From positions 4,152-68,151 of the forward strand of contig CACHFI010000001.1 in assembly GCA_902579065.1 (NCBI GenBank): 64,000 nt of DNA, in the 5' to 3' direction. Below, piece after piece: positions 19,167 to 59,662 of the stretch. The position numbers and the translations under genes were made by a program. This stretch comes from an uncultured Bacteroidota bacterium (GTDB lineage: Bacteria; Bacteroidota; Bacteroidia; Flavobacteriales; BACL11). The notes below the pieces were generated by a model. That model worked only from the letters and a program-made list of their open reading frames with translations, was not told the origin of the DNA and did not search any database. Every line of letters starts with the position of its first letter. Within the stretch, counting starts at the first letter, position 1.

Positions 19167-19996
19167 TGCAATATACAGAGGTAGACATTACACTTGAAAA
19201 AACTGTTCCATTCTCTGAAATAATTATAGCAAAACTAGATATCTTAAAATTTGATACTTTCCAAGAACATGATAATGGATTAAAATGTTATATACAAACA
19301 AATCTTTTAGACAAACAAAAATTGTCAAAGATTTTGGATGATGTTTCAAATCAAACAAAATTGGAATATTCATTAAGAAAAATGCCTGAAAAAAATTGGA
19401 ATTTGGAATGGGAAAAAAATTTCCAACCAATTGAAATTAATTCAAAGTGCTTTATTCGCTCAAATTTTCATGATCATAATGGCACATATGATCATGAAAT
19501 TATAATTACGCCAAAAATGTCATTTGGAACTGGTCATCATGAAACAACTTTTCTCATGATTAACAAAATGTATGATTTAAATTTCTCAAAAAAATCTGTT
19601 TTAGATATGGGTTGTGGTACTGGGATTCTTTCTATCTTATCGCATAAAATGGGGGCCAATAATGTACTTGGTATAGATATAGATGAATGGGCATATAAAA
19701 ACTCTTTAGAAAATTCAGTTTTAAATAAAATTCATGACATTGAATTTATTAAAGGAGATATTAATTCAATTAATAATTTTTCTTTTGATATAATACTTGC
19801 AAATATTAATAGAAACATAATTTTACAAGATCTCTCAGAATATTATAAATTATTAAGTAATGATGGGGAGATATTAATTTCAGGTTTTTTAAAGGAAGAT
19901 ATAGAGAAGATATCTAACGCTGCTTTGAAATTAGGAATAGTCATAATAAATAAAAAGAATAAAGGAAAATGGTATTTAATGCATTTAAAAAAGTAG
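19166..19996 (+). CDS. prmA: Ribosomal protein L11 methyltransferase
   Basis: PrmA-like layout with the FGTGHHETT block and a SAM-binding DMGCGTGILSI motif. Confidence 0.88.
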   Translation: MQYTEVDITLEKTVPFSEIIIAKLDILKFDTFQEHDNGLKCYIQTNLLDKQKLSKILDDVSNQTKLEYSLRKMPEKNWNLEWEKNFQPIEINSKCFIRSNFHDHNGTYDHEIIITPKMSFGTGHHETTFLMINKMYDLNFSKKSVLDMGCGTGILSILSHKMGANNVLGIDIDEWAYKNSLENSVLNKIHDIEFIKGDINSINNFSFDIILANINRNIILQDLSEYYKLLSNDGEILISGFLKEDIEKISNAALKLGIVIINKKNKGKWYLMHLKK

Positions 19997-22900: not shown

Positions 22901-24396
22901 AATTTATTTCTGTAAATAAAGATCAGGATTCACTTTCTTTTTATGCAAAAAGTGCCGGATATAGTTTGAAAGATTTTATCATTTATGCTGAAGGTGTAGA
23001 TAGTATTCTTGTAGCAGACGCAGTAATTTTTCCAGATTCCGCAAAAATTACTGTTGCAAAAAATGCAAAAATTCAAACTTTAAATAATTCAAGAATTATT
23101 CTTGACTCTTTAGTAAGATATCATAATTTTAATAATGCATCTGTGGATATTATTGGTAAAAATAATTATAGTGCATCTGGAGATTACGTTTATAAAGATG
23201 CTTTAGAGAATGAGCAACCAATTTATTTTTCTGAAATAACAGTAAATATAGACACTGTTTCTGTTGCTAAAGGAAATGTCGATCAACAAAAAGACTTTAT
23301 GATTGGAAGCAGGTATAATTATTATGGGGATATTATATTGATTGGAGATAGAAAAGATCTTAAGTTCAAGGGTTATTTTAAATTGAGTCATAATTGTTCA
23401 GCTTTTTCTAAGAATTGGATTAGTTTTTCATCTTTTATAGATCCTTTTAATATTTCATTCAATTTCAATGACGAATTATACAATAATAATGATGATAAAT
23501 TATATTCTGGAATATATTATAACAGAGATTCATCAATTTACTATTCTACATTTTTAAGTACAAAGAAAAGAGCTAAAGACGTTGAGTTTTTCTCTGCTGG
23601 ATCTAGTGTATATTATAATAATGAATTAAGTTCATATATAGTTGGAGGCTTAGATTCATCATCTAATTATTTAATTTTAGATGAAAAAACATGTTCAGTT
23701 TCTGGATCAGGAACACTTGATTTGAATTTTAATCTTGGAAGAATAAATACTACTTCAGTTGGAAATATTTCAAATAAAAATGGAGAAATTTCATTTGATG
23801 GATTCTTGTTTTTAGATTTTGATTTTTCAGAAAAAGCATTGGAGATTATGGCTAATGATATTTTTTCAGCACCTGGAGATGAGATTTTTGAATATGATTT
23901 GAATTATGAAAACAATTTGTCCAAAATAGTAGGAAATAGTTCCAAAGAGGAATTAATGATTGACTTAGAGATAAATGATGCTTTTGAAAAGTTGCCAAAA
24001 CAAATGAAAAAAACGATTGCTTTAACAAAAATTAATTTTGTTTGGGATAAAAATAGAGAGGCATTTATTTCAAAAAATAATATTGGAATAGGTAACATTG
24101 GAGAAACTCAAATAAATGGCATGTTAAATGGTCATATTTTAATTGAGAAGGGCCGTAATACTGATATACTCAGTTTGTATCTCCAAACTGAGTTCTATGA
24201 TGAATATTTCTTTACTTATAAAAGTGGTGTGATGAGAGCAATTTCAACTAATCCTGAGTTTAATACAGCAATTACAGATGTTAAGGATACTAAAAGAAAA
24301 TCCAAATCTATTAAGGGAATGGATCCATTTAGATATATGTTGGCAAATGAAGATTCACCTGAGAAATTCTTAAAAAAAATAAATAAGAAATTCTAA
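19969..24396 (+). CDS. Very large (1475 aa) secreted or anchored hypothetical protein with no recognisable domain
   Basis: Long uninterrupted ORF with a signal-like N-terminus (KKVVLITILFFISVSLSNAQ). The composition is beta-rich and N/S/F/Y-rich. The start overlaps the prmA 3' end by 28 nt. Confidence 0.85.
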   Translation: MVFNAFKKVVLITILFFISVSLSNAQNKIKAFSEDYSVYLNELSEFMFSSDNNDLKSNFKNFKKISSKENYTDSQKNKIISISNRMLKKRYKASTHFNNFVLCLTALHNNSISNDKVSDWLDVVSTLVDEHSSKKLLVYFYFSIDLVNENILRETKTTSWVISSKSYDFSIKNNEPFISFSDVDLTCSSDGGKIVTYSTSGSYFPYSYKINGKGGKMDWSQLGLNSDSIYVILDGYSLDVRTAAIQADSVLFTNKLMFSLSLKGSFVDKITRGKQAESYPKFVSYSKDIVIKDVYPQVDYKGGYKLQGVNFIADGGKYADARLIFNNNGKKIFVANANKFNLGGDIISSKQVGIKIYFDNDSLYHSNLKFNYDNNKRKLKLSKAGKFSSPMLNTYHQLNMKFELLEWEIDENIITFGSLPGTSVSEVNFESVDMYLENRFDELQGIDAVHPLILIDNYMRDKQESKFFVEDFARYIKYPFVQVQTYLIDLANKGFLFYDFSEDRVTVLPSLSRYVLAKSQQGDYDVIQFNSKVIGNSLTMVNAVLNIESKDLIIRGINQIAVSDSQKVAIFPKGGEIKILKNRDFVFNGRIFAGNGRVNLYGQDFHFNYDEFKIDLKKIDSVQLSVPVKPVQVDMYNNPLLTRIKTVIEAASGELIIDESSNKSGLRKQNHPEYPIFKSFSDSYVYYDNPDIFDGVYSRDNFSFHLKPFTIDSLESYSTDGLWFAGTFKSSNIFPVFDDTLRIQSDYSLGFKRNTPIEGFPLYAGKSKYYNEIELGNNGLRGSGKFEFLSSVIHSEKIIFFPDSTQLLSDAFIINEVAQGIEFPQTSNTKTYCNYEPYNDRLEVFQTHEMFDVYNGQASHKGNLLLKPTGLTGNGIMKLDLAEVSSKFFSFNSTWFKADTANLNVFDNSSNLAFSAKNLRANIDVKDREGIFFSNGTGSYVNFPASEYICYIDQLKWEMDNEQLTFGNNDPLSTSRSEFISVNKDQDSLSFYAKSAGYSLKDFIIYAEGVDSILVADAVIFPDSAKITVAKNAKIQTLNNSRIILDSLVRYHNFNNASVDIIGKNNYSASGDYVYKDALENEQPIYFSEITVNIDTVSVAKGNVDQQKDFMIGSRYNYYGDIILIGDRKDLKFKGYFKLSHNCSAFSKNWISFSSFIDPFNISFNFNDELYNNNDDKLYSGIYYNRDSSIYYSTFLSTKKRAKDVEFFSAGSSVYYNNELSSYIVGGLDSSSNYLILDEKTCSVSGSGTLDLNFNLGRINTTSVGNISNKNGEISFDGFLFLDFDFSEKALEIMANDIFSAPGDEIFEYDLNYENNLSKIVGNSSKEELMIDLEINDAFEKLPKQMKKTIALTKINFVWDKNREAFISKNNIGIGNIGETQINGMLNGHILIEKGRNTDILSLYLQTEFYDEYFFTYKSGVMRAISTNPEFNTAITDVKDTKRKSKSIKGMDPFRYMLANEDSPEKFLKKINKKF

Positions 24397-43513: not shown

Positions 43514-44405
43514 CTTTTACTATTCCGCGAATTATCCAATAAGATTTTAAAAATTTAAATTTGTGATTTGGTATAAAGAATTGAAGAACTAGACTAAATA
43601 AAAGTTTCAAAAATTGAATGAATACTTTAATTTTTAAAATTATTATTGATGTTATTAGGTTTTCATGAAAAAGAGTTCTTTTAGCAAATTGATTTGCATT
43701 TAAAATTATTCTTTCTTTTAAATATTCCTTTTCAAGTTTGTAATAGGCTTCAGAATGTGTAATACTCATTTCAGAAATATTATAAAGTTTAACATCTTTA
43801 TTTTTCTTTATTAATTTGTAAAAGAAGTCTGGTTCCTCTCCAAGTCCAAGATTCCCGCCAGTCATACCAATTTCTGTGTTAAATTTTTCACTTTTTAAAA
43901 AAAGTTTTTTTGCAATACACATATTTCCTCCTGAAAACCCTTCTTTTGATTTAATTGTTCCTAAAAAACCATCAGAAACCTTAAATTCCCTTACAAAATA
44001 ATTTTTGTCAATCCATTTTTCAGGTTCATTTTCAAATTTTGGATATATTGGACCTCCGTAAATTATATTTTCATTTTGATTTTTAAGTTCATTTAAAAGC
44101 GCTTCAAGCCAATTCTTATTAATTACTGCATCATCATCAACAAATGCTAAAAACATACCTTTACATACTTCAAATGAAAGATTTCGAGCAAAGCTAATTC
44201 CTTGCCTTTTTTCAATAAAATAATTCACTTCGGGAAACTTCTTTTGTAATTCAGTTACGTAATCTTTGGTTGTATCAGTACTATTATTATCAATTATATT
44301 TATTTCTATAATCTTACTCCCTTGTGTTTGATCTAAAATAGATTTTAAACATTTTTTTAAATATTCAATTCTATTATATGTACAAATAGTTATGCTGAGA
44401 ACCAT
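43503..44405 (-). CDS. Glycosyltransferase family 2
   Basis: Has the GT-A N-terminus LSITICTYNR...L.SIL.QT and a DDD motif (FVDDDAVI). Confidence 0.82.
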   Translation of the reverse strand: MVLSITICTYNRIEYLKKCLKSILDQTQGSKIIEINIIDNNSTDTTKDYVTELQKKFPEVNYFIEKRQGISFARNLSFEVCKGMFLAFVDDDAVINKNWLEALLNELKNQNENIIYGGPIYPKFENEPEKWIDKNYFVREFKVSDGFLGTIKSKEGFSGGNMCIAKKLFLKSEKFNTEIGMTGGNLGLGEEPDFFYKLIKKNKDVKLYNISEMSITHSEAYYKLEKEYLKERIILNANQFAKRTLFHENLITSIIILKIKVFIQFLKLLFSLVLQFFIPNHKFKFLKSYWIIRGIVKAIF

Positions 44406-45073
44406 TCTTTTATTTTTTTTAGAATAAATTCTCTGTATGATTTTAACTTAGTGTTTTTTACAAAATCTTTTTCTATTATTCTCTCATTTTTAAATGAAAT
44501 AAAATCTAAAATTTCATTTTTTGTTTTAGAAGTATTAAAATTTGAGAGATTCCAAATTTTAATGTTATTAGGATATTTTAATTTTAGATTTTTTGTGGTT
44601 TTAATATAATCATCATAATATTTCTCAATAGCTTTTTGTTTATCTTTTATTGGATATTTAGGAAAACAAGGATCCCACCTTTCATCTAGATTCCAATCTT
44701 CTCCATTATGAGAATACCAATGATTTCTTCCTTGAGTTTTTTTAAGAAAACTATCAATTACCTCTTTTTTTCCCCTCTCTAATCCTATTATCTTAACATT
44801 ATTGTATTTTTTTATAATTAAATCAATATAGGGCAGGAAGTACATGCCAGTATCTCCAATAAAATCTATATTATCATCGTAGTTAATAAGGTAATCTAGC
44901 CATTTAAATAGTTCATCATCATCATTTTTCCATTTAATTAGTTTTCTTATTTTTTCCTTTTCTAATCTTCCTTCATGTAAAACTAACATGTTTTTTTGTG
45001 CTGATAAAAATGATGACAATGAAGCACTTCCGCTTCTTCCTGTTCCAATTGATATAATTAATTGTTTTTGCAC
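44390..45073 (-). CDS. Sulfotransferase-like P-loop protein (227 aa)
   Basis: The N-terminal LIISIGTGRSGSASL resembles the 5'-phosphosulfate-binding loop of PAPS sulfotransferases. The rest of the protein is divergent. Confidence 0.45.
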   Translation of the reverse strand: MQKQLIISIGTGRSGSASLSSFLSAQKNMLVLHEGRLEKEKIRKLIKWKNDDDELFKWLDYLINYDDNIDFIGDTGMYFLPYIDLIIKKYNNVKIIGLERGKKEVIDSFLKKTQGRNHWYSHNGEDWNLDERWDPCFPKYPIKDKQKAIEKYYDDYIKTTKNLKLKYPNNIKIWNLSNFNTSKTKNEILDFISFKNERIIEKDFVKNTKLKSYREFILKKIKEWFSA

Positions 45074-45074
45074 T

Positions 45075-45824
45075 TTAATAATCTATTAAACTATACCCAA
45101 AACTATTTACTTCATCTTCATATTTTTCAATAATTCCTCTAATCTTTCTTTTTGTAAAAAAGCTATTCTTTTTTTTCTCCCACATTTTAAAATATTTTTG
45201 ATTTATACCACCTCTGATTTCAACTTCAGTATTTATTATTTTAGTTTTTATAAATTCTGAAATTAATTTAAGAGTTTCATCTGTATTGTTAATTAAATCT
45301 TCATATCTAAAATTTATTGATCTTTTTAATTTTTTTTGATCATTATTGTAAATTTTGTGACAAACTATCCAATGATCAATCAATGATTCAAGTGATGTTT
45401 TAGACCATTTCTGTGTTGCTAATGAAGTTGCAATAGGGTGCCTAGTTATATTTATAAAATAACTATTTGGAAACATTTCTTGAAGGAACCTTGATTTTAA
45501 AATATTTGGAGGTGATTTTTCAACTAAATATTTCTTTTCAATGTTCCAATATTTTGACCATTCTTTAAATAACTTATTTCTATTCTTTTCGTTTATCAGA
45601 ATTGATGTTTCATTAAGTTGAGATTCTTTATTAAAACCAAATCTGCCAACACCACCAAAATTATATGCCGGCAAATAAACACTTTGTACAAATTGACCTT
45701 CATCTTCAATTTCATTAGTATTTGTTAAAGCAGAAAAATTCTCTTGTGTATCAAGGATTTTGTAAAATAGTGATGTTCCACTTCTGTGTAGGCCAGAAAT
45801 AAAGATGAAAATTTTATTCTCCAT
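45075..45824 (-). CDS. Sulfotransferase-family protein (249 aa)
   Basis: Has a 5'-PSB loop (IFISGLHRSGTSL) and a 3'-phosphate-binding-like ITRHPIATSLA (R-x-P...S) block. Confidence 0.7.
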   Translation of the reverse strand: MENKIFIFISGLHRSGTSLFYKILDTQENFSALTNTNEIEDEGQFVQSVYLPAYNFGGVGRFGFNKESQLNETSILINEKNRNKLFKEWSKYWNIEKKYLVEKSPPNILKSRFLQEMFPNSYFINITRHPIATSLATQKWSKTSLESLIDHWIVCHKIYNNDQKKLKRSINFRYEDLINNTDETLKLISEFIKTKIINTEVEIRGGINQKYFKMWEKKKNSFFTKRKIRGIIEKYEDEVNSFGYSLIDY

Positions 45825-45826
45825 TT

Positions 45827-48800
45827 TTAGAATAATTTATTTACACCAAATAACCACCTAAACTCTAAATATTCTTCATTTGCTGGTGGTCTGTTAAGAA
45901 AAAATGGAATATCTAATCTAAGAATAAGAGGTTTCATTTTGTATAATGGTTTTAATGAATATGTAATTCCAACACCTGCATCAGCTCTTAGATCAGTAAA
46001 AATTTCAGTGAAATTAGAACTATTAATATCTTTATTTGAAATAATTCCTGCATCTCCAAAAATATATGGTTTTAATTCATTGTTCATTAAGTGTATATGA
46101 AAATATTTTGATAAATCAATTTCTAAATTTATCGCTACACCACTTTTACCAGAATAATTAAATGATTCTATATTTCCATTCTCTTCTTGAGGAATCAAAT
46201 ATCCTGCATAACCTCTTAGATTTAATCCACCACTATGATGAAAATTATTTAATGTAGAGCCAAACCCAATATATTCATTTGGAATATAGCCTGTTGATCT
46301 TGTAAATTCATTATTCATTAAATCTTCATTATTACCTCCTGCAAAATATAACTTGCTTTCAGATGCCCAATTATCACCAGTTCCTATTTGTACAAATATT
46401 CTTGATTTTAGCTTTAAATCAAAAATAGAAGCGTTATTAATGTTTTTTAGTATAAATTTATTGTAGTTGTAATCTGAAAATAATGCAGAACTCATAGTGC
46501 TTAATTCAATTTCTCCTGAAATTTCATTAATCTTATATTTATGTTCTAACGATAAATCTATTCTGTTATTAAATTTATTTATATCCCAATACTCAGGATA
46601 TAACATATAATTTTCTCCTTTCGTCCTATAATATGATAGTAAACCAATTTCAATTTTACTTTTTTTATCTAATGTGTATTTTGAAAATGATATTTTATTT
46701 GTGTGTAAACCAGCTATAAAATCACTTTTTAATCCAACTCTGGCATATTTCATATAGTTGTCAAGATTTGTATTGTAATTAAGTTTATATGAATATAAAT
46801 CATAATTTTCTTTGTTTGTTAAATCTTCGTTTTGTAACTGTCCTGAATTAATCCAAAAATTAAAATCAAATAAATGATGATGATTTAGATAACCTCCATT
46901 TAGATTGACACCAATTTTTAATCCATCGTATGAATTCCACCAAAAATTGGGTCTATATTTGATTTCATAATTTCTCCAATCAGCTCTTTGATATAAAAGA
47001 TGATCGTAACTATATGTTTTGTTGATACTAGTACTATTGTCAGGCATATATATGTCTCCAAATCTAGTTGTGGGATCAATTATAACTTCTTTTATTCCTG
47101 TAGGTATGTCTAATGATATTTCGTATTTAGGGTTTAATTTGTCCCAGCCATGCCATTTTGGAAGAATTTCAGCATCAGTTTTTTTAACAAACCAGTTATT
47201 TGGAATATGATAATTATATTTTTTTAAATCATTTCCTATTACTGTAAAATCAATTGGCATTTGCATTCTTGATTTTCTTTTAAATATAATTATATCAGAA
47301 TCTTCATTCTTTTTAAGTTTTACAGAATAATCTAATCTTTTATCTGTATCTAACCACTGATCAAAAAACCAGTTTAGATCAACATTTGTATATTGAATAA
47401 TTGCATTTCTAAAATCTTCATTATATGGATGAGCTATTTTCCAGGTATTAAAATAATATTTCATCGCATCTAAAAATAATTCATCTCCTAACACATATTG
47501 AAGGTTATATAGCATAGTCGCTGTTTTATAATACACTTGTCTATATCCTCCACCATGACCTAGTGCACCATTAAAACAATCTGAATGAGTTGAGATGATT
47601 GGATCAGTTTTTCTAGTAGCTGATTCAATATATGCATTATAGACCTCAGTATCTATAGCTTTTTGAGGTTTATGAAATCTTTTTCTATAACTGTTTTTTG
47701 GTAAATCCTCCACTACATTTTCTCCATCAATTTCTATCATTGCCCATGCTGTAAGGAATTCTGTAAAGCCTTCATCTAGTAAAGCTCGATATGTTTCATT
47801 ATTTCCTACCTGACCAAAGAACCACATATGTCCAATTTCATGAGCTAGTAAATCCCTATAGCCTGGATCAGTACCACTGTCTAGAGTTATCATTGGATAC
47901 TCCATACCATCTCTTGCATCAGCAACAATAACTTTATGCCAAACATATCTTCCAAAATCTTCAGAAAAGACTCTCAAGCATTCTGCTCCAAAATCAGCTG
48001 CATTTTGCCATTTACTTGCATGTGGTTCTTGAACAAGAGAATAGCATACTTTGTCTTCCCATCGTGATTCACCAATTCTATAAGTTGGATCAGCAGTAAA
48101 TGCAAAATCATGTACATTTTCAGCATGATATTTCCAAGTTTTATGATCCTCTTTATTATATTCTATTATTGTTGAAGGAGGTGAATTAAAGGGTTTATCT
48201 TTAAAGTTTTTTACATCAAGCTTATCTCGTAAATCTTTTGGTAAAACTTCATCTCTATTAAGTAGGTTTCCTGTAGCTTCTACAATGAAATTGGATGCAA
48301 AAGTTAATTCAACATCAAAAGTTCCAAAGTTTCCATAGAATTCTCTCCCTAGATGTTGGTCAGTTGTCCATCCAAATTTAGCATCGTAAACTGAAATTCT
48401 CGGATACCAATGAACCCCATTATAGTGTCTATAGCCCCATGCATCGTATGATTTCATTCGTCTTCTAACTTCACCGCTATCAAAATATGTTTTGAATTTT
48501 ATTTCAAATGTTATTTTATCATTTGGAACCAATGGTTCAATTAAATAAACTTTTAAAATCGTATTGTCAAGTTCACTTTTAAGGTTCATTCCACTAATAG
48601 TTATTTTTTCTACTGTTGTTCCTAATTTTTTTGATTCGTATTTGCCATATTTTGGATTTTTTCCATTTTCTTTTTGCAGTTTATCATAATATGAATCTGG
48701 TTGAAAAGCATTTTGATATAAATGAAAGTAAACAAAATACAGTGTGTCTGGAGAATTATTCCAATAGGTTAGTTCTTCGTAGGCATCAATAATATCTGTT

Positions 48801-48994
48801 TCTTCATCAATATTTGCCTTTATGTTATAATATATATCTTGTTGCCAATATGCAGCATGAGGCATTTTGTTTTTCCAATAATTTGGATTATCAATTTTTC
48901 TGTAAGTATTAGGCTTTTGAAGTGGATCGTAAGCTACCTGAGAAAAGGCAAAATTTGATATAAAGACTAAAAAAGTTAATATATATTTTTTCAT
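45827..48994 (-). CDS. M1-family zinc metallopeptidase domain fused to a C-terminal Omp85-like outer-membrane beta-barrel
   Basis: Has a signal peptide (MKKYILTFLVFISNFAFSQ). The gluzincin signature HEIGH-X18-E lies at nt 47828-47842, with a DGMEYP exopeptidase-like motif. In the C-terminal roughly 400 aa, there are GGLNLRGY (nt 46208-46231, like the Omp85 loop-6 (V/I)RG(Y/F) motif), IFGDAG (nt 46046-46060, like the FxDxG motif) and a terminal ...FGVNKLF. Confidence 0.7.
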   Translation of the reverse strand: MKKYILTFLVFISNFAFSQVAYDPLQKPNTYRKIDNPNYWKNKMPHAAYWQQDIYYNIKANIDEETDIIDAYEELTYWNNSPDTLYFVYFHLYQNAFQPDSYYDKLQKENGKNPKYGKYESKKLGTTVEKITISGMNLKSELDNTILKVYLIEPLVPNDKITFEIKFKTYFDSGEVRRRMKSYDAWGYRHYNGVHWYPRISVYDAKFGWTTDQHLGREFYGNFGTFDVELTFASNFIVEATGNLLNRDEVLPKDLRDKLDVKNFKDKPFNSPPSTIIEYNKEDHKTWKYHAENVHDFAFTADPTYRIGESRWEDKVCYSLVQEPHASKWQNAADFGAECLRVFSEDFGRYVWHKVIVADARDGMEYPMITLDSGTDPGYRDLLAHEIGHMWFFGQVGNNETYRALLDEGFTEFLTAWAMIEIDGENVVEDLPKNSYRKRFHKPQKAIDTEVYNAYIESATRKTDPIISTHSDCFNGALGHGGGYRQVYYKTATMLYNLQYVLGDELFLDAMKYYFNTWKIAHPYNEDFRNAIIQYTNVDLNWFFDQWLDTDKRLDYSVKLKKNEDSDIIIFKRKSRMQMPIDFTVIGNDLKKYNYHIPNNWFVKKTDAEILPKWHGWDKLNPKYEISLDIPTGIKEVIIDPTTRFGDIYMPDNSTSINKTYSYDHLLYQRADWRNYEIKYRPNFWWNSYDGLKIGVNLNGGYLNHHHLFDFNFWINSGQLQNEDLTNKENYDLYSYKLNYNTNLDNYMKYARVGLKSDFIAGLHTNKISFSKYTLDKKSKIEIGLLSYYRTKGENYMLYPEYWDINKFNNRIDLSLEHKYKINEISGEIELSTMSSALFSDYNYNKFILKNINNASIFDLKLKSRIFVQIGTGDNWASESKLYFAGGNNEDLMNNEFTRSTGYIPNEYIGFGSTLNNFHHSGGLNLRGYAGYLIPQEENGNIESFNYSGKSGVAINLEIDLSKYFHIHLMNNELKPYIFGDAGIISNKDINSSNFTEIFTDLRADAGVGITYSLKPLYKMKPLILRLDIPFFLNRPPANEEYLEFRWLFGVNKLF

Positions 48995-49881
48995 ATTTTA
49001 TCTGTTAAGTTTTTTTTTGCATTGAATATGCTAGCATTAAGTTCAAATCCTATCAATAAGAAAATGGCGTTAAAATATATCCAAAGTAAAATTATAATTA
49101 ATGTACCAATAGATCCATAAATTTTATTGTATTGAGAAAAGTTATCAATGTAGTAACTAAAAACAATGGATGTTAAAATAATAAATAATGTTGCAAGAAT
49201 TGCACCTGGAGAAAATATTTTTATTTGGCTTTTAATAGCAGGTCCTAAATTAAAAATTGTGGTAATTCCTAAAAATAACATGAAAATTAGGATTACCCAC
49301 TTTGCAGAGTTTAATAAAACAAGTTTATTTTCATTAATTAATTGATAATCTATCATGAAAATTATTGCAGCTTTTCCGAATATAATTAATATTATAGTTA
49401 GAAAAACTAAAGCTGAAATAACAATAGTTAAAAGAATTGATAGCATTTGATGTTTTATAATTGACTCATTTTCTCTAATATGATATGATGAGTTAAAAGC
49501 TTGAATTAGTGAGCTCATACCGTTGGTGGAAAAGTATAATGCTAAAATAAATCCTATTGATAATAGTCCGCCCCTTTGATTATTTATTATGTCCTCAAGT
49601 GTTGAAAATGTTGCAGAGTTAGTAGATGGAGGTAATACATTTGAAATTATTTCCATTAGGGTTTGTTGAAAACCATCAATTGGTATATAAGGTATTAAGG
49701 TAAAAAAAACAATTATTGAAGGAAAGAAAGCAAGAAAAAAGTTAAATGCTAAAGAAGATGCTCTAGTTGTGATAGCTCCTTCTTGTAATCCTTTTATAAA
49801 AAAAACGGAAACATCATATAAACTAAGGCCAGTAAAACCTAAAGGTTTAATTTTTTTTACAACCTCAATTAATTTATTCAT
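48991..49881 (-). CDS. YihY/BrkB-family inner membrane protein
   Basis: Has six TM helices. The N-terminal ITTRASSLAFNFFLAFFPSII and C-terminal YGS.G..I..L.W.Y blocks are typical of the family. Confidence 0.8.
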   Translation of the reverse strand: MNKLIEVVKKIKPLGFTGLSLYDVSVFFIKGLQEGAITTRASSLAFNFFLAFFPSIIVFFTLIPYIPIDGFQQTLMEIISNVLPPSTNSATFSTLEDIINNQRGGLLSIGFILALYFSTNGMSSLIQAFNSSYHIRENESIIKHQMLSILLTIVISALVFLTIILIIFGKAAIIFMIDYQLINENKLVLLNSAKWVILIFMLFLGITTIFNLGPAIKSQIKIFSPGAILATLFIILTSIVFSYYIDNFSQYNKIYGSIGTLIIILLWIYFNAIFLLIGFELNASIFNAKKNLTDKI

Positions 49882-50720
49882 TTGGCTTTAAGGCTTAGAT
49901 CAAAGTTTCTAATAGAGTGAGTTAAAGTACCTAATGAAATATAGTCAACTCCACATTTTGCATATTCTAAAATGTTATTTTCGGTTATACCTCCGGATGA
50001 TTCTGTTTCAAAGCGATTATTAATAAAATTTACAGCTTGTTGTGTTTGTTTATAATCAAAATTGTCTAATAGTATTCTAGTTATTCCTCCTTCATTTATT
50101 ATTTCTTTAATTTCATCTAAGTTTCTAGTTTCCACAACTATATCAAGATTTAAATCATGATCCTTTAGGTATTTTTTGGTTCTTTTGATTGCTTGAGATA
50201 TTCCTCCACAAAAGTCAATATGATTATCCTTAATCATAATCATGTCATCCAAAGCATATCGATGATTTACTCCACCTCCAATCTTAACTGCCCATTTTTG
50301 TATGTGTCTGTTTAATGGAAAAGTTTTTCGTGTATCTAGAATTTTTGTTTTGGTAGAGGATATTTTATTACATATATTTTTTGTTTTAGTAGCAATTGCA
50401 CTCATTAGTTGCATACAATTCAAAACAAGTCGCTCAGCTTTTAAAATAGATTGAGTAGACCCTTTAATTTTTAAAACTATATCATTCATTTTAACAGTGT
50501 CTCCATCATTCAATTTTATATCAATTTCTAATTTATCATCAACTTTTTTGAAAATATAATTTGCTAATTCAGTTCCAGCAATAATTCCATTATCTTTAGC
50601 AATAATATTTGCTTCACTTACATTATTATTATTTATGCACGCTAAGGATGTGAAATCTCCTTTTCTTATATCTTCATTAAGAGAATCATTAACAAATTTT
50701 TCAAGTTCTTTATTAATCAT
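49878..50720 (-). CDS. nadC: Nicotinate-nucleotide diphosphorylase (carboxylating)
   Basis: Contains AER..LN, LDTRKT.P, KWAVKIGGG.NHR and IKDNHI blocks. ATG 50720 (MINKELEKF..) is preferred over the track start at 50747. Confidence 0.9.
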   Translation of the reverse strand: MINKELEKFVNDSLNEDIRKGDFTSLACINNNNVSEANIIAKDNGIIAGTELANYIFKKVDDKLEIDIKLNDGDTVKMNDIVLKIKGSTQSILKAERLVLNCMQLMSAIATKTKNICNKISSTKTKILDTRKTFPLNRHIQKWAVKIGGGVNHRYALDDMIMIKDNHIDFCGGISQAIKRTKKYLKDHDLNLDIVVETRNLDEIKEIINEGGITRILLDNFDYKQTQQAVNFINNRFETESSGGITENNILEYAKCGVDYISLGTLTHSIRNFDLSLKAK

Positions 50721-50759
50721 TAAATGGTAAATTACTAATATTGTCAAAAATACAAAATA

Positions 50760-51233
50760 ATGAAGATTTTATTGTTGTCCAATGGTAGGACATCGGATGA
50801 AAATATTAGAAAACAGTTGTTAGATTTTAATAAAAGATTGTCTCATTATATTGATTTTAATCATTTAGAAATTCCAAATGTTAAGAATGCAAACAATTTA
50901 AATTCATCTCAGCTTAAGCAAAAGGAAGGAGATATGATTAATAAATATATTTTGAAGGGAGATTATATTATATTATTAGATGAAAATGGTAAATCCTACA
51001 GCTCAATTGAATTTTCAAAGAAAATTGAAAATTTTATGATTAATAGCTTTAAACGTATTGTTTTTATTATTGCAGGGGCATATGGTTTTTCTGATAAAGT
51101 TTATAGTATGGCAGATGAAAAAATATCGTTATCTAAAATGACCTTTAATCATCAAATGATAAGAGTATTTTTCTATGAACAACTTTATAGAGCATTTACA
51201 ATTATTAAAAATGAAAAATATCATAATCAATAA
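50760..51233 (+). CDS. rlmH: 23S rRNA (pseudouridine1915-N3)-methyltransferase
   Basis: 157-aa SPOUT protein with F.IAGAYGFS and LS.MTF.HQM.RV...EQLYRA blocks. Confidence 0.9.
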   Translation: MKILLLSNGRTSDENIRKQLLDFNKRLSHYIDFNHLEIPNVKNANNLNSSQLKQKEGDMINKYILKGDYIILLDENGKSYSSIEFSKKIENFMINSFKRIVFIIAGAYGFSDKVYSMADEKISLSKMTFNHQMIRVFFYEQLYRAFTIIKNEKYHNQ

Positions 51234-57208: not shown

Positions 57209-59662
57209 CTAGAATCTAAAAATAAATTTTAGATTTAATTGTCTTCTTGTTAAGTAATTTGGAACGGCAAATTGTCTTCCTCCTACATCAGAAACCCACA
57301 AATAAGATATAGTGTTATTTATGTCTAGCAAATTGAATACTTCTGCGCTAATCCATGCTGAATTAAATACATTCATAAATTTTACTTTTGCCCTTTTATT
57401 TTCAGATTTTAAAACTGCTGAAAATCCAACATCTACTCTTCTATAATCAGGTATTCTTAAAATATCTTGGTATTTTTCTGATTTTGGAGGTCCAAAAGGA
57501 AGACCTGAACCATAAATCATATTTAAGTGCATTTTATAATTCATATTTCCAGGTATATAATCTTGAAAAAACAGACTAAAGTTAACTCTTTGATCAGTTG
57601 GTCTTGGTATGTAACCTGGGTAAACTGTATTTCCATTATTGTCAATATATGAATCACCAATTATATCTTCTTCAGTTTGCATTATTGATAAACTTGCCCA
57701 ACTTTCAACACCAGAAACAAATTCACCATTAATTTTTACATCAATTCCAGTTGCATACCCTGATGAGTTATTTTCTGCAAGATATTGAATCCTTACGTTA
57801 TCTACTTTATATGGAATTAGATTATCTAATTGCTTGTAATATATTTCAGTTATCCATTTAAATGGTCTTCCCCATTTGTAAAAAAGATAATCTGATCCTA
57901 AGACATAATGAATAGATTTTTGTGATTCAATATTTTGGTTTAATTCTCCATTTGGATATCTCAATTCTCTGTAAAATGGAGATTGATAATAAATTCCAGA
58001 AGCTAATCTAAATACAATATCTTTTTCCCATTTTGGAGCATAGGCTAATGAAAATCTAGGAGAAACTAAGAGTTCACTATTGTATGACCAATAACTAGAT
58101 CTAGTTCCAGCTGATATAGATAAATTATTTATATCTTGATTGTATTCAAGATAGCCAGATTGTCTAGTACTTGATATATTTATATCTGTTTTTAATAATT
58201 CGTCCATCAATACTTGTTGATTTGGATTAGAAGGATTTCCTATCGAGTCATATGGATGAGGAAGGGTAAAGCCAGCAGAATCAATTAATGTCCACTCACT
58301 AATTTTGTCAATTATATTTTCATTTTGAGATTTTAATCCCCAATTAATATTTATTTCATTTTGATCGTAATTTCCTTTGTGGGAGAAATTAATAACTCTT
58401 GCATCTAAGGAGTTCCTTGCATGATTAATATATTTTCCAACACCTCTATCAAAAGCAACATCTCCAAAATTATCAGAGCCTAAATTATTATCAAGTTGAT
58501 ATAGCCAATATTCACCTAAAATATCAAAATTTTCTGCTTCAAAAGTTTGAAAGGCTGAGCTTGTTAGTTCAAGTTGAAGTTTTGTGTTTGGATTATATTT
58601 TGTGGAAATAGCACCAAAATATGTTTGATATTTATCTAGTTCTTGTCCTTCAAAAAAAATGGTTAATCTTAGTGCTTCATTAAAGGTTCCAAAATCAGTG
58701 TTCCTGTTTTGAGGAATCATTTGATACCTATTACTTGAAATATTTGTTAAAAGGCTTATATCCCAATTTGTACTTAATTTATAATTTATAAACGTTTGAA
58801 GATCAGAAAATCTTGGAGAATATTCTGCATCTGTATCTAAGCTATTAAGAATATATTGATTTGATTTATGTCTTAATCCTAAGAGATAGCTCAATCTTCT
58901 ATTTTTACTAATTCCTTCTAGATGTGCTGATCCACCCAAAAGACTGAAACTGACTGAGCTAGAATTTTTCTTTGGTTGTTTATATTTTATGTCTAAAACA
59001 GATGACATTTTATCTCCATATTTTGCAGAAAAACCTCCTGCTGAAAACAAAATACTTCCAACTAAATCAGTATTTACGAAACTTAAACCCTCTTGTTGAC
59101 CAGAATGAATTAAAAAAGGTCTATATACTTCAATCCCGTTCACATAAACAAGATTTTCATCAAAATTTCCTCCTCTGACTGAATACTGAGAGCTTAACTC
59201 ATTTGCAGAACTAACACCAGGAAGTGTTTTTAAGACAGATTCTATTCCGCCACCAGATCCGGGAATTACTTCAACATGTTTGGTTTTAATTCTGCTGAGA
59301 TTACTTTTTCTACTTTTTTGATCTTTGACAATAATACTGTTTAACATGGTGTTGGACTCCTTTAAAACAATATTTAAAATATATTGTTGACCTTTTTTAA
59401 GCATTGGAATTCTAATTTTTTCAGTTTCATATCCAATAAAACTAAAAGCAAGAATATAAGATCGATTTGCTTTTATTGAAATATTATATTCTCCTTTGTT
59501 GTTTGATGTAATACCTCCTTTTAGGTCTATTACAGAAATGTTAACTGCTTCTAGTGGTTTATTGTTTACATCAGTAATTTTTCCTTGTATGTTTTGAGCA
59601 GAGGAAACTAGTGTAGTAAAAAAAAGAAAGTAAATAAAAATATAGGCTTTCATCTGATACAA
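57209..59662 (-). CDS. TonB-dependent outer membrane receptor with an N-terminal carboxypeptidase-regulatory-like domain
   Basis: Has a signal peptide, a CarbopepD_reg-like beta-sandwich (IQGKITDVNNKPLEAVNISV), a plug region (SIRGG..DENLVYVNGIEVY) and a C-terminal ...LKFIFRF. Confidence 0.85.
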   Translation of the reverse strand: MYQMKAYIFIYFLFFTTLVSSAQNIQGKITDVNNKPLEAVNISVIDLKGGITSNNKGEYNISIKANRSYILAFSFIGYETEKIRIPMLKKGQQYILNIVLKESNTMLNSIIVKDQKSRKSNLSRIKTKHVEVIPGSGGGIESVLKTLPGVSSANELSSQYSVRGGNFDENLVYVNGIEVYRPFLIHSGQQEGLSFVNTDLVGSILFSAGGFSAKYGDKMSSVLDIKYKQPKKNSSSVSFSLLGGSAHLEGISKNRRLSYLLGLRHKSNQYILNSLDTDAEYSPRFSDLQTFINYKLSTNWDISLLTNISSNRYQMIPQNRNTDFGTFNEALRLTIFFEGQELDKYQTYFGAISTKYNPNTKLQLELTSSAFQTFEAENFDILGEYWLYQLDNNLGSDNFGDVAFDRGVGKYINHARNSLDARVINFSHKGNYDQNEININWGLKSQNENIIDKISEWTLIDSAGFTLPHPYDSIGNPSNPNQQVLMDELLKTDINISSTRQSGYLEYNQDINNLSISAGTRSSYWSYNSELLVSPRFSLAYAPKWEKDIVFRLASGIYYQSPFYRELRYPNGELNQNIESQKSIHYVLGSDYLFYKWGRPFKWITEIYYKQLDNLIPYKVDNVRIQYLAENNSSGYATGIDVKINGEFVSGVESWASLSIMQTEEDIIGDSYIDNNGNTVYPGYIPRPTDQRVNFSLFFQDYIPGNMNYKMHLNMIYGSGLPFGPPKSEKYQDILRIPDYRRVDVGFSAVLKSENKRAKVKFMNVFNSAWISAEVFNLLDINNTISYLWVSDVGGRQFAVPNYLTRRQLNLKFIFRF

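What the first reader, a model, noticed from the sequence alone, without database searches (positions are those of the whole stretch)
45827..48994. M1 gluzincin peptidase fused to an Omp85-like beta-barrel: a possible self-anchoring or self-exporting surface peptidase
The N-terminal roughly 650 aa carry a signal peptide, DGMEYP and HEIGH-X18-E, the M1 aminopeptidase-N-type signature. The C-terminal roughly 400 aa are rich in alternating beta-strand patterns. They contain the two motifs that lock loop 6 to the barrel wall in Omp85/BamA/TpsB proteins: GGLNLRGY ((V/I)RG(Y/F)-like) and YIFGDAG (FxDxG-like). The protein ends in an aromatic residue (..NKLF).

A catalytic passenger joined to an Omp85-type barrel is the architecture of type Vd secretion, exemplified by the patatin-Omp85 protein PlpD. 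An M1 peptidase as the passenger is a combination I do not recognise as characterised. For a marine flavobacterium, it would put an aminopeptidase on the cell surface independently of the T9SS.
Basis: partly seen in the sequence, partly recalled or inferred. Interest (0 to 1): 0.6.

Follow-up and report, generated by a model that had tools for sequence, protein, structure and literature searches.

The report
Aminopeptidase fused to Omp85 membrane barrel
One gene of a marine Flavobacteriales genome encodes a zinc aminopeptidase permanently joined to a BamA-like outer-membrane barrel; this architecture is widespread in Bacteroidota, goes unrecognised by annotation, and probably holds the enzyme at the inner face of the outer membrane rather than exporting it.

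Summary
The ORF (45827-48994, minus strand, 1055 aa) has a signal peptide and an M1 zinc-peptidase module. That module carries DGMEYP, HEIGH-x18-E and a catalytic Tyr488. A roughly 380-residue C-terminal region follows and models confidently as a 16-stranded beta-barrel. Foldseek against the PDB matches the barrel to BamA/TamA (best 50 listed hits, E about 3e-9, probability 1.00). The LRGY motif sits in the long loop between strands 11 and 12, and FGDAG sits in strand 13, as in Omp85 proteins. The window protein itself misses the Pfam Omp85 model, but three family relatives pass its threshold.

The fusion is not rare: more than 3900 protein clusters and at least 575 species genomes carry it, and sources label it only 'M1 family aminopeptidase'. 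The same barrel also occurs alone and with unrelated N-terminal domains.

There is no POTRA domain and no lumen-spanning linker. The cited prototype, PlpD, is now reported to keep its enzyme domain in the periplasm. My best reading is an outer-membrane-anchored, periplasm-facing aminopeptidase whose barrel replaces M1 domain IV. Surface display is not excluded. I rate it a new variant of a known kind, of moderate to high interest.

The parts
45827..48994 (-). Whole gene: 1055-aa M1 peptidase-Omp85 barrel fusion protein plus stop codon
   Evidence: ORF list and translation. Full-length homologues of 1050-1100 aa are found in more than 3900 clusters.
48941..48994 (-). Residues 1-18, Sec/signal peptidase I-type signal peptide (MKKYILTFLVFISNFAFS), with predicted cleavage before Gln19. 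There is no lipobox Cys.
   Evidence: Read directly from the sequence. No signal-peptide predictor was available. The Gln at +1 fits the Bacteroidetes Q-rule (PMC5837995, PMC10653852).
48836..48940 (-). Residues 19-53, strongly conserved N-terminal extension (YDP..PNTY..NPNYWKN..YWQQD) that the model cannot place
   Evidence: Sixteen columns are invariant in A1, yet pLDDT is 40-48. Its role is unknown.
47351..48835 (-). Residues 54-548, M1 domains I (beta-rich, about 54-300) and II (thermolysin-like catalytic, about 301-548)
   Evidence: Pfam Peptidase_M1 matches residues 381-547 at E 2.5e-12. Secondary structure comes from the model. Foldseek aligns about 650 columns to IRAP/ERAP1/ERAP2/tricorn factor F3 at E 7e-17.
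47894..47911 (-). DGMEYP (residues 362-367), a variant of the M1 GxMEN exopeptidase motif. Met-Glu is kept and Asn is replaced by Tyr.
   Evidence: G363, M364, E365, Y366 and P367 are invariant. The local model confidence is low (pLDDT below 50).
47771..47842 (-). HEIGH-x18-E zinc-binding and catalytic motif (H385, E386, H389, E408)
   Evidence: all four residues are invariant. By eye it aligns in register with the PepN sequence HEYFHNW...LKEGLT printed.
47531..47533 (-). Tyr488, predicted transition-state-stabilising tyrosine
   Evidence: phmmer aligns QVYYKTA with TVYEKGA of E. coli PepN, placing Tyr488 opposite what I take, from memory of PepN numbering, to be its catalytic Tyr381. Invariant in A1.
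47006..47329 (-). Residues 556-663, all-beta sandwich corresponding to M1 domain III. It is not a POTRA domain.
   Evidence: The model shows seven strands and a single 4-residue helix. No Pfam hit appears even at E<=10.
46970..47005 (-). Residues 664-675, 12-residue connector (DHLLYQRADWRN) between the sandwich and barrel strand 1
   Evidence: W673 is invariant. The segment is confidently placed even in the barrel-only model (pLDDT about 82).
45830..46969 (-). Residues 676-1055, 16-stranded Omp85-type outer-membrane beta-barrel ending in Phe
   Evidence: Sixteen long strands in both models. The barrel model has pLDDT 88.0 and pTM 0.85. Foldseek's best 50 listed hits are BamA/TamA barrels at E 2.9e-9 to 1.2e-7 and probability 1.00. 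Relatives P0317, P0345 and P0349 pass the Pfam Omp85 gathering score.
46145..46369 (-). Residues 876-950, long loop between strands 11 and 12 (the loop-6 equivalent). It contains GGLNLRGY at nucleotides 46208-46231.
   Evidence: Strand order. G922, G923, N925, R927 and Y929 are invariant. R927 is 100% conserved in both fused and unfused barrels.
46046..46066 (-). YIFGDAG (residues 977-983) in strand 13, the Omp85 FxDxG motif
   Evidence: Strand 13 spans residues 974-986. Y977, F979 and D981 are 100% conserved in both groups; G983 is 88% conserved in the fused and 100% in the unfused barrels. hhalign aligns the motif with FFWDMG of E. coli BamA.
48991..50747 (-). Upstream genes of the same tightly packed transcription unit: nadC (49878-50747) and a YihY/BrkB-family inner-membrane protein (48991-49881). 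The YihY/BrkB stop codon overlaps the peptidase start codon.
   Evidence: The order nadC-yihY-fusion is kept in 25-29 of 81 related loci. A functional link is not shown.

Best explanation
The gene encodes a two-module outer-membrane protein.

Proposed route and topology:
- The protein is exported by Sec and its signal peptide is cleaved before Gln19 (inferred).
[quoted passage not shown] The conserved LRGY loop 6 is locked to the FGDAG motif of strand 13. The fold is shown by modelling; the membrane location is inferred.
- The N-terminal 650 residues form an M1 zinc aminopeptidase made of domains I-III. The usual helical domain IV is missing and the barrel occupies its place in the chain.
- In every solved Omp85 protein the chain enters strand 1 from the periplasmic side. 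Here there is no POTRA domain, no plug helix, and only a 12-residue connector. The peptidase therefore most likely stays on the periplasmic face, rigidly tethered under the outer membrane.

Proposed function (inferred): the enzyme trims N-terminal residues from oligopeptides that enter the periplasm through TonB-dependent or other importers, and so feeds amino-acid uptake. The barrel acts mainly as a permanent membrane anchor, and possibly as a substitute lid for the active-site cleft.
For: M1 identity:
- Pfam Peptidase_M1 scores 47.3 bits against a cut-off of 27.7.
- Foldseek matches IRAP/ERAP1 at E 7e-17 over about 650 columns.
- HEIGH-x18-E, Glu365 and Tyr488 are invariant.

Barrel identity:
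- Sixteen strands, with the long loop between strands 11 and 12.
- The best 50 listed Foldseek hits are BamA/TamA, at probability 1.00.
- Three relatives pass the Pfam Omp85 threshold. They match the barrel profile at E 5.5e-101, 6.9e-21 and 1.1e-14.
- RefSeq names a 37%-identical barrel homologue 'BamA/TamA family outer membrane protein'.

Barrel autonomy:
- Versions with a signal peptide followed directly by the barrel exist, as do versions with unrelated N-terminal domains of about 230 aa.

Periplasmic side:
- Connections after even-numbered strands are short (2-8 residues, one of 13). Connections after odd-numbered strands are mostly longer. This is consistent with strand 1 starting in the periplasm.
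- No POTRA domain was found.
- The PlpD enzyme domain is periplasmic (PMC11116518).
- Bacteroidetes are described as processing imported oligopeptides with periplasmic exopeptidases (PMC10653852).

The family is large and conserved at full length, so the fusion is under selection.
Against: - The side of the membrane was not tested. I could not read model coordinates or predicted aligned errors.
- The comparison of conservation in fused versus unfused barrels showed no clear docking face for the M1 module.
- The exopeptidase motif is atypical (DGMEY rather than GxMEN). The active-site segments are modelled with low confidence (pLDDT below 50 at residues 361-377 and 398-403). Exo- versus endopeptidase activity, and activity itself, are therefore unproven.
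- The window protein itself does not reach any Omp85 sequence profile. hhalign against E. coli BamA gives only 5% probability, so homology rests on the fold, the motifs and intermediate sequences.
- A 12-residue extended connector could in principle span a barrel lumen.
- A barrel kept merely as an anchor would not obviously need its fully conserved loop-6 lock.
Confidence: 0.55

Rival explanations
1. Surface-displayed peptidase. After the barrel is inserted, it translocates its own N-terminal M1 module through the lumen, as was originally proposed for type Vd/PlpD or as in two-partner secretion. This would put an aminopeptidase on the cell surface independently of the type IX secretion system.
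For: - The domain order, catalytic module at the N-terminus and Omp85 barrel at the C-terminus, is that of PlpD.
- Aminopeptidases can be passengers of type V systems, for example the P. aeruginosa autotransporter with arginine-specific aminopeptidase activity (PMC3426542, listed).
- The protein has no T9SS C-terminal domain and no lipobox, so if it is on the surface it must get there by itself.
- The conserved loop-6 lock and the short strand 16 are features of transport-competent Omp85 proteins.
Against: - No POTRA domain was found, which all known Omp85 translocases use.
- The connector is only 12 residues long.
- The PlpD passenger is now reported to be periplasmic and not secreted (PMC11116518).
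- A 650-residue three-domain zinc enzyme would have to cross unfolded, without an evident energy source.
- BamA/TamA-type barrels are described as closed to the outside (Heinz and Lithgow, PMC4104836).
Confidence: 0.2
2. Channel-coupled peptidase. The barrel is not just an anchor but a conduit or docking site. Peptides would pass through or along the barrel and be delivered straight to the active site sitting at its periplasmic mouth. The barrel would stand in for M1 domain IV as the wall of the substrate cavity.
For: - The barrel follows domain III exactly where domain IV would be.
- The connector and the strand at residues 659-663 are confidently docked on the barrel even in the barrel-only model.
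- The whole-protein pTM of 0.69 suggests a defined arrangement between the modules.
Against: - By analogy with BamA/TamA, whose lumen is described as closed to the outside (PMC4104836), the conserved RGY/FxDxG lock suggests loop 6 fills the lumen here too.
- No coordinates were available to check for a pore or to see the orientation of the active site.
- The same barrel exists without any peptidase.
Confidence: 0.1
3. Envelope-biogenesis or quality-control factor. The barrel would retain an Omp85-like interaction with nascent outer-membrane proteins or lipoproteins. The M1 module would process or degrade their N-termini, rather than serving nutrition.
For: [quoted passage not shown]
- Heinz and Lithgow suggested periplasmic quality control for another enzyme-Omp85 fusion (PMC4104836).
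- The gene lies among envelope and polysaccharide genes: a YihY/BrkB protein, a sulfotransferase, a GT2 glycosyltransferase and a Polysacc_synt flippase-like protein.
Against: - No POTRA domain was found for binding substrates.
- Most Bacteroidetes exported proteins are protected by N-terminal pyroglutamate (PMC10653852).
- Only the upstream neighbours nadC, yihY and rlmH are conserved. The downstream envelope genes are not.
Confidence: 0.1
4. The C-terminal region is not a membrane barrel but soluble beta-sandwich or other beta domains, and the motifs are coincidental.
For: No Pfam, NCBIfam or PDB sequence-profile hit was found for residues 655-1055 of the window protein.
Against: - The model is a confident 16-strand barrel (pLDDT 88, pTM 0.85).
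- It matches BamA/TamA at probability 1.00.
- The motifs are invariant across distant relatives.
- Relatives pass the Pfam Omp85 threshold.
Confidence: 0.02

Closest known systems
PlpD of Pseudomonas aeruginosa (patatin-like Omp85 protein, 'type Vd')
   Same: A single polypeptide with an N-terminal hydrolase and a C-terminal 16-stranded Omp85 barrel. It is probably a membrane-tethered periplasmic enzyme rather than a secreted one (PMC11116518).
   Different: The enzyme here is an M1 zinc aminopeptidase, not a patatin lipase. There is no POTRA domain between enzyme and barrel. The barrel is too divergent to reach Pfam PF01103. The family belongs to Bacteroidota, not Proteobacteria. Dimerisation was not examined.
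'noNterm' Omp85 proteins (Heinz and Lithgow 2014, PMC4104836; Leptospira paralogues, PMC11358297)
   Same: An Omp85 barrel without POTRA domains. Unfused members of this very barrel subfamily consist of a signal peptide followed directly by the barrel.
   Different: The window protein carries a 650-residue catalytic module in front of the barrel. The function of noNterm proteins is itself unknown.
BamA / TamA barrels
   Same: Best structural matches. They share the 16 strands, loop 6 with the RG[YF] motif, FxDxG in strand 13, and similar strand 14-16 signatures, including the C-terminal aromatic residue.
   Different: About 12% sequence identity. No POTRA domains. No evidence for insertase function or for partner lipoproteins.
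M1 aminopeptidases (E. coli PepN, ERAP1, IRAP, tricorn-interacting factor F3)
   Same: Domains I-III, the HExxH-x18-E zinc site, the Glu of the GxMEN motif and the catalytic Tyr.
   Different: The helical C-terminal domain IV is absent and is replaced in the chain by a membrane barrel. The exopeptidase motif reads DGMEY. The spacing between that motif and HExxH is about 13 residues shorter than in PepN. Sequence similarity to solved M1 enzymes is marginal (E 0.05).
P. aeruginosa autotransporter with arginine-specific aminopeptidase activity (type Va; PMC3426542)
   Same: An aminopeptidase covalently joined to a C-terminal outer-membrane barrel.
   Different: From general knowledge of classical (type Va) autotransporters, that protein has a 12-stranded barrel crossed by a helical linker and a surface-exposed passenger; I recall the passenger as an M28-family peptidase but did not check this here. 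The present barrel has 16 strands and is of the Omp85 type.
Omp85 'Metallo' subfamily of Heinz and Lithgow (PF00149 domain + Omp85)
   Same: Another enzyme-Omp85 fusion of unknown topology, for which a periplasmic role was proposed.
   Different: It has a different enzyme fold (PF00149, which as I recall is a metallophosphoesterase family). Its barrel is recognised by PF01103.

Membership tests
Peptidase family M1 (gluzincin aminopeptidases) | HExxH followed 18 residues later by Glu (zinc ligands and catalytic Glu) | tested here: met
   H385-E-I-G-H389 ... E408. All four residues are invariant in 48 homologues.
Peptidase family M1 (gluzincin aminopeptidases) | GxMEN exopeptidase motif that binds the substrate's free amino terminus | tested here: inconclusive
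   The motif reads D-G-M-E-Y (residues 362-366). Met-Glu is kept and invariant, Asn is replaced by Tyr, and the spacing to HExxH is about 13 residues shorter than in PepN. The local pLDDT is below 50.
Peptidase family M1 (gluzincin aminopeptidases) | Catalytic tyrosine about 80-100 residues after HExxH | tested here: met
   Y488 aligns with the Tyr of TVYEKGA in E. coli PepN, which I take from memory to be the catalytic Tyr381. It is invariant.
Peptidase family M1 (gluzincin aminopeptidases) | Profile and fold match to M1 enzymes | tested here: met
   Pfam PF01433 scores 47.3 bits against a cut-off of 27.7. Foldseek matches IRAP/ERAP1/F3 at E 7e-17 to 1e-13.
Peptidase family M1 (gluzincin aminopeptidases) | C-terminal helical domain (ERAP1_C-like domain IV), typical of the family but not universal | tested here: not met
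   No helical domain follows residue 548 and there is no Pfam hit. The barrel follows domain III instead.
Peptidase family M1 (gluzincin aminopeptidases) | Zinc-dependent aminopeptidase activity | not testable with these tools
   Needs an enzyme assay.
Omp85 superfamily | 16-stranded transmembrane beta-barrel with the BamA/TamA fold | tested here: met
   Sixteen strands in two independent models. The best 50 listed Foldseek hits are BamA/TamA at probability 1.00, with TM-score about 0.5 normalised to the query.
Omp85 superfamily | Long loop 6 between strands 11 and 12 carrying (V/I/L)RG(Y/F) | tested here: met
   The loop spans residues 876-950 and carries L926-R-G-Y929. R927 is 100% conserved in both fused and unfused barrels.
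Omp85 superfamily | (F/G)xDxG motif in strand 13 | tested here: met
   F979-G-D981-A-G983 lies in strand 974-986. F979 and D981 are 100% conserved in both groups; G983 is 88% in the fused and 100% in the unfused barrels. hhalign aligns the motif to FWDMG of E. coli BamA.
Omp85 superfamily | Sequence-profile match (Pfam PF01103 Omp85 above the gathering score) | tested here: not met
   The window protein has no hit even at E<=10. Only 2 of 41 barrel relatives in A3 hit the model. Relatives P0317 (29.1 bits), P0345 (28.0 bits) and P0349 (44.5 bits) do pass the cut-off of 24, so homology is supported transitively.
Omp85 superfamily | [quoted passage not shown] | tested here: not met
   No POTRA profile hit. 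Residues 556-663 are all-beta with no beta-alpha-alpha-beta-beta unit. This is the same situation as in the described 'noNterm' subfamily.
Omp85 superfamily | C-terminal aromatic residue / beta-signal for BAM-dependent insertion | tested here: met
   The protein ends ...GVNKLF; the family consensus is ...GINRAF.
Type Vd secretion (PlpD-like) | Patatin-like passenger | tested here: not met
   The passenger is an M1 peptidase.
Type Vd secretion (PlpD-like) | Single POTRA domain between passenger and barrel | tested here: not met
Type Vd secretion (PlpD-like) | Passenger translocated to the cell surface | not testable with these tools
   Needs topology experiments. For PlpD itself the passenger was found to be periplasmic (PMC11116518).
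Classical (type Va) autotransporter | 12-stranded C-terminal barrel crossed by an alpha-helical linker | tested here: not met
   The barrel has 16 strands and no helix precedes strand 1. All of the best 50 listed structural hits are Omp85 proteins.

The most novel reading that the evidence does not exclude
An Omp85 barrel has taken the place of domain IV of an M1 aminopeptidase, creating a new kind of outer-membrane machine in which barrel and enzyme work together. Two forms of this are possible. In one, the barrel gates or delivers peptides to an active site docked at its periplasmic mouth. In the other, a POTRA-less Omp85 barrel really does export its own 650-residue enzyme to the surface. 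Either would be a function not known for the Omp85 scaffold, and it would be present in hundreds of Bacteroidota species.
Probability: 0.25. Interest if true: 0.8.

Novelty: new variant of a known kind. Interest (0 to 1): 0.6.

Why it matters
The Omp85 superfamily is usually defined as a barrel plus POTRA domains, and its members are seen as insertases or translocases. PlpD recently showed that the scaffold can instead tether an enzyme in the periplasm.

This family would be a second example, and a far more widespread one. It uses a different enzyme and has no POTRA domain at all. It is invisible to the standard Omp85 profile, so censuses of the superfamily and genome annotations ('M1 family aminopeptidase') miss it.

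For marine Flavobacteriales and other Bacteroidota that live on proteins and peptides, it identifies a conserved, membrane-fixed aminopeptidase. Whether the enzyme sits in the periplasm or on the surface changes how cell-associated peptidase activity is interpreted. The question is directly testable in cultured carriers. The family also offers a natural experiment on what M1 domain IV does, because a membrane barrel replaces it here.

Tried and rejected
- Sequence profiles on the C-terminal region alone (Pfam at E<=10, NCBIfam) gave nothing.
- A 16-sequence barrel profile searched against all PDB sequences gave nothing even at E<=10. The full-length profile against PDB also gave nothing at E<=0.001.
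- hhalign of the barrel profile against the E. coli BamA barrel gave probability 5% and E 0.0075. Strands 13-15 were in register but loop 6 was misaligned, so this is too weak to count as evidence.
- The search for related loci with the diverse barrel alignment failed for lack of a conserved stretch. The full-length alignment was used instead.
- I tried to infer which face of the barrel the M1 module touches. I compared positions conserved in 43 fused barrels with those in 16 unfused or differently fused barrels. Almost all conserved positions are shared core motifs. Only Y702 and W714 stand out, so the test is inconclusive.
- The His-rich turn (NHHH, residues 703-707) looked specific to fused forms among close relatives, but it is not conserved in distant fused members. 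I dropped it.
- I looked for a functional operon link. Only the upstream nadC, yihY and rlmH order is conserved, and the downstream sulfotransferase and glycosyltransferase genes are not. No function was inferred from the neighbours.
- Four literature searches for this fusion found no description of it. The one paper holding both domain names does not mention the combination.
- P0295, which looked like a natural 'signal peptide + barrel' deletion variant, sits on a single 2.7-kb contig in a cluster whose other complete members are 1081 aa long. It is probably an assembly or deletion artefact.
- P0144, with transmembrane segments, a VWA domain and the barrel, was likewise set aside as a possible gene-call fusion.

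Full report
**1. The observation**

The coordinates 45827-48994 hold one uninterrupted ORF of 1055 codons. It lies on the minus strand, which the finding did not state. All quoted sequence features are present, and I verified their window coordinates:
- a signal-peptide-like N-terminus, MKKYILTFLVFISNFAFS, followed by Gln
- DGMEYP (residues 362-367)
- HEIGH-x18-E (residues 385-408)
- GGLNLRGY (residues 922-929)
- YIFGDAG (residues 977-983)
- the C-terminal ...NKLF

The window has 28% G+C and is tightly packed. The start codon of this gene overlaps the stop codon of the upstream gene.

The motifs are not chance matches. In an alignment of 48 full-length homologues (55-96% identity) every residue of the zinc site and of both barrel motifs is invariant. 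The barrel motifs stay invariant or nearly so in relatives of only 20-40% identity.

**2. The N-terminal module**

- Pfam finds Peptidase_M1 over residues 381-547 (E 2.5e-12; 47.3 bits against a cut-off of 27.7).
- Sequence similarity to solved M1 enzymes is marginal (E 0.05).
- The full-length AlphaFold2 model (pLDDT 74.8, pTM 0.69) matches IRAP, ERAP1, ERAP2, puromycin-sensitive aminopeptidase and tricorn factor F3 over about 650 alignment columns, at E 7e-17 to 1e-13.
- A phmmer alignment to E. coli PepN puts Tyr488 opposite what I take, from memory of PepN numbering, to be the catalytic tyrosine. By eye, the printed PepN sequence also shows HEIGHMW...LDEGFT in register with HEYFHNW...LKEGLT.
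- The exopeptidase motif is a variant. Met-Glu is kept, Asn is replaced by Tyr, and the spacing to HExxH is shorter. The segments around the active site are the least confident parts of the model. Peptidase activity is therefore likely, but strict aminopeptidase specificity is an inference.
- After the catalytic domain comes an all-beta sandwich (residues 556-663) corresponding to M1 domain III.
- The helical domain IV that normally caps the active site is absent.

**3. The C-terminal module**

The window protein gives no hit to any Omp85, POTRA or other barrel profile, even at E<=10. A family profile finds nothing among PDB sequences. The structural evidence, however, is clear:
- Both the full-length model and a separate model of residues 655-1055, built on a more diverse alignment, show 16 long strands. 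The separate model has pLDDT 88.0, pTM 0.85 and no residue below 50.
- Foldseek against the PDB returns 102 hits at E<=0.001. The best 50, which are the ones listed, are all BamA or TamA barrels (E 2.9e-9 to 1.2e-7, probability 1.00, TM-score about 0.5).
- The one long loop (residues 876-950) lies between strands 11 and 12 and carries LRGY. FGDAG lies in strand 13. These are the positions of loop 6 and of the FxDxG motif that lock together in Omp85 proteins. That positional rule is established knowledge of BamA, TamA and FhaC structures.

Sequence evidence arrives through intermediates:
- A profile of the barrel finds P0317, P0345 and P0349 at E 5.5e-101, 6.9e-21 and 1.1e-14.
- These three pass the Pfam Omp85 gathering score, with 29.1, 28.0 and 44.5 bits against 24.
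- P0345 is itself an M1-plus-Omp85 protein, from a KSB1 genome.
- RefSeq names a 37%-identical barrel homologue from Salibacter halophilus 'BamA/TamA family outer membrane protein'.
- Direct hhalign against the E. coli BamA barrel is weak (probability 5%), although strands 13-15 align in register.

Only 2 of 41 barrel relatives reach the Pfam model. That explains why annotation calls these proteins only 'M1 family aminopeptidase'.

**4. Distribution and modularity**

- The full-length fusion is common. A search of 5.8 billion protein clusters gave more than 3900 matches, and the listed best hits are nearly all 1050-1100 aa long.
- At least 575 species-representative genomes encode a relative of the full-length protein. 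Among the 80 loci kept, nearly all matches span the whole protein, and they come from Flavobacteriales, Chitinophagales and Sphingobacteriales. The cultured Taibaiella soli is among them. The nearest genome is a marine Flavobacteriales MAG at 85% identity.
- An exhaustive search with the barrel alone found 326 representatives at 50% clustering and no classical Omp85 proteins.
- Among these representatives are complete proteins made of a signal peptide followed directly by strand 1: P0132, P0133, P0215, P0269, P0292, P0339 and P0341-P0343. There is also a group with an unrelated N-terminal domain of about 230 residues and no family match: P0125, P0134, P0138, P0139, P0296 and P0297.
- The Salibacter member of that second group sits at the same genomic position as the window gene, after rlmH and nadC. 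Its similarity to the window protein starts exactly at strand 1.

The barrel is therefore an autonomous module that has been combined with different N-terminal parts. The gene order rlmH | nadC - yihY/brkB - fusion gene is kept in 25-29 of 81 related loci, down to about 45% identity. The downstream sulfotransferase and glycosyltransferase genes are not conserved. I draw no functional conclusion from the neighbours.

**5. How it most likely works**

Shown or strongly supported:
- It is one polypeptide.
- It has an M1 catalytic module with a complete zinc site.
- It has an Omp85-type barrel with the loop-6 lock and a C-terminal aromatic residue.
- No POTRA domain was detected.

Inferred:
- Export by Sec, with cleavage before Gln19. 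This fits the Bacteroidetes Q-rule (PMC5837995, PMC10653852).
- Insertion of the barrel by BAM.
- Location of the M1 module on the periplasmic side.

The argument for the periplasmic side has five parts:
- In all solved Omp85 proteins the chain enters strand 1 from the periplasm and the N-terminal domains are periplasmic.
- Here, connections after even-numbered strands are short and those after odd-numbered strands are mostly longer, including loop 6. This fits the same orientation.
- Only 12 residues join the sandwich domain to strand 1, and no plug helix or POTRA domain is present.
- The one studied enzyme-Omp85 fusion, PlpD, was long taken as the type Vd secretion prototype. It has now been shown experimentally to keep its enzyme domain in the periplasm (PMC11116518).
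- Bacteroidetes are described as importing oligopeptides and trimming them with periplasmic exopeptidases (PMC10653852).

I therefore favour an outer-membrane-anchored, periplasm-facing aminopeptidase (confidence about 0.55). The barrel would serve as a permanent anchor and perhaps as a replacement for domain IV.

Rivals, in order of weight:
- Self-export to the surface, about 0.2.
- A channel-coupled peptidase, about 0.1.
- An envelope quality-control role, about 0.1.
- 'Not a barrel' is effectively refuted.

I could not read model coordinates. A conservation comparison between fused and unfused barrels did not reveal a docking face. The topology therefore remains the key open point.

**6. 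Comparison with what is known, and novelty**

- The protein works like PlpD in architecture, but it fails two defining features of the type Vd family: the patatin passenger and the POTRA domain.
- It meets the structural and motif criteria of the Omp85 superfamily but lacks a POTRA domain, like the 'noNterm' subfamily (PMC4104836, PMC11358297).
- It meets the catalytic criteria of family M1 but lacks domain IV.
- Heinz and Lithgow's census lists ten Omp85 subfamilies, including patatin and PF00149 'Metallo' fusions. It does not mention M1 peptidases.
- Four full-text searches found no description of this fusion. Absence from that library is not proof of absence from the literature.

I classify it as a new variant of a known kind: a previously unrecognised, widespread, POTRA-less enzyme-Omp85 architecture.

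**7. Verdict**

Interest is 0.6. A specialist in Omp85 or type V systems would find a second, abundant enzyme-Omp85 family without POTRA notable, and its topology is directly testable. It is nevertheless an extension of a known theme rather than a new category.

Noticed in passing
Locus L001, 5001-6821 (Salibacter halophilus WP_151169609.1 = P0296): At the same genomic position as the window gene (after rlmH and nadC), Salibacter has a 606-aa protein. Its barrel is 37% identical to the window barrel from strand 1 onward. Its 220-residue N-terminal part is unrelated to M1 and matches no family. A group of similar proteins of about 615-630 aa exists (P0125, P0134, P0138, P0139, P0297).
   Followed up: partly
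Proteins P0132, P0133, P0215, P0269, P0292, P0339, P0341-P0343: These are complete 'signal peptide + barrel only' members of the same barrel subfamily (about 400-445 aa). They amount to a noNterm Omp85 group that also escapes Pfam PF01103.
   Followed up: partly
Window 48836-48940 (residues 19-53 of the fusion protein): The N-terminal extension YDP..PNTY..NPNYWKN..YWQQD is very strongly conserved: 16 columns are invariant among 48 homologues. Yet it is modelled with pLDDT of only 40-48. A conserved but unplaced segment could be an interaction or regulatory element.
   Followed up: no
Protein P0295 (425 aa, ENA contig of 2.7 kb): The first roughly 40 residues of a fusion protein are joined directly to barrel strand 1 at a shared WKNY/WRNYE microhomology, removing the whole M1 module. 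The other complete members of its 90% cluster are 1081 aa long, so this is probably an assembly artefact or a rare deletion.
   Followed up: partly
Window 48991-50747 and 50760-51233; loci L003-L070: The gene order rlmH (divergent) | nadC - yihY/brkB-family inner-membrane protein - fusion gene is conserved in 25-29 of 81 related loci. In the window the neighbouring genes overlap by 4 nucleotides. The meaning of the YihY association is unknown.
   Followed up: partly
Window 19969-24396 (+): This 1475-aa ORF has no Pfam hit at E<=1e-5 and no NCBIfam hit at E<=0.01. It is the largest unannotated protein in the window.
   Followed up: no
Window 44390-45073 (-) and 45075-45824 (-): Directly downstream in the same strand run are a sulfotransferase-family protein and a 227-aa protein with no family match. 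A GT2 glycosyltransferase follows. None of the three is conserved next to the fusion gene in related genomes (at most 1 of 81 loci).
   Followed up: partly
Window 57209-59662 (-): This 817-aa protein has CarboxypepD_reg and TonB-dependent-receptor Plug domains, so it looks like a SusC-like or TonB-dependent importer. It lies about 8 kb from the peptidase gene. No link was tested.
   Followed up: no
Protein P0144 (637 aa): It has N-terminal transmembrane segments and a VWA domain followed by the same barrel. An inner-membrane anchor joined to an outer-membrane barrel is topologically odd, so this is possibly a gene-call or assembly fusion.
   Followed up: no
Whole window: G+C is 28%. Genes are tightly packed, and many starts and stops overlap. 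This is typical of a streamlined marine Flavobacteriales genome. The closest genome hit is MAG MED638, at 85% protein identity.
   Followed up: partly
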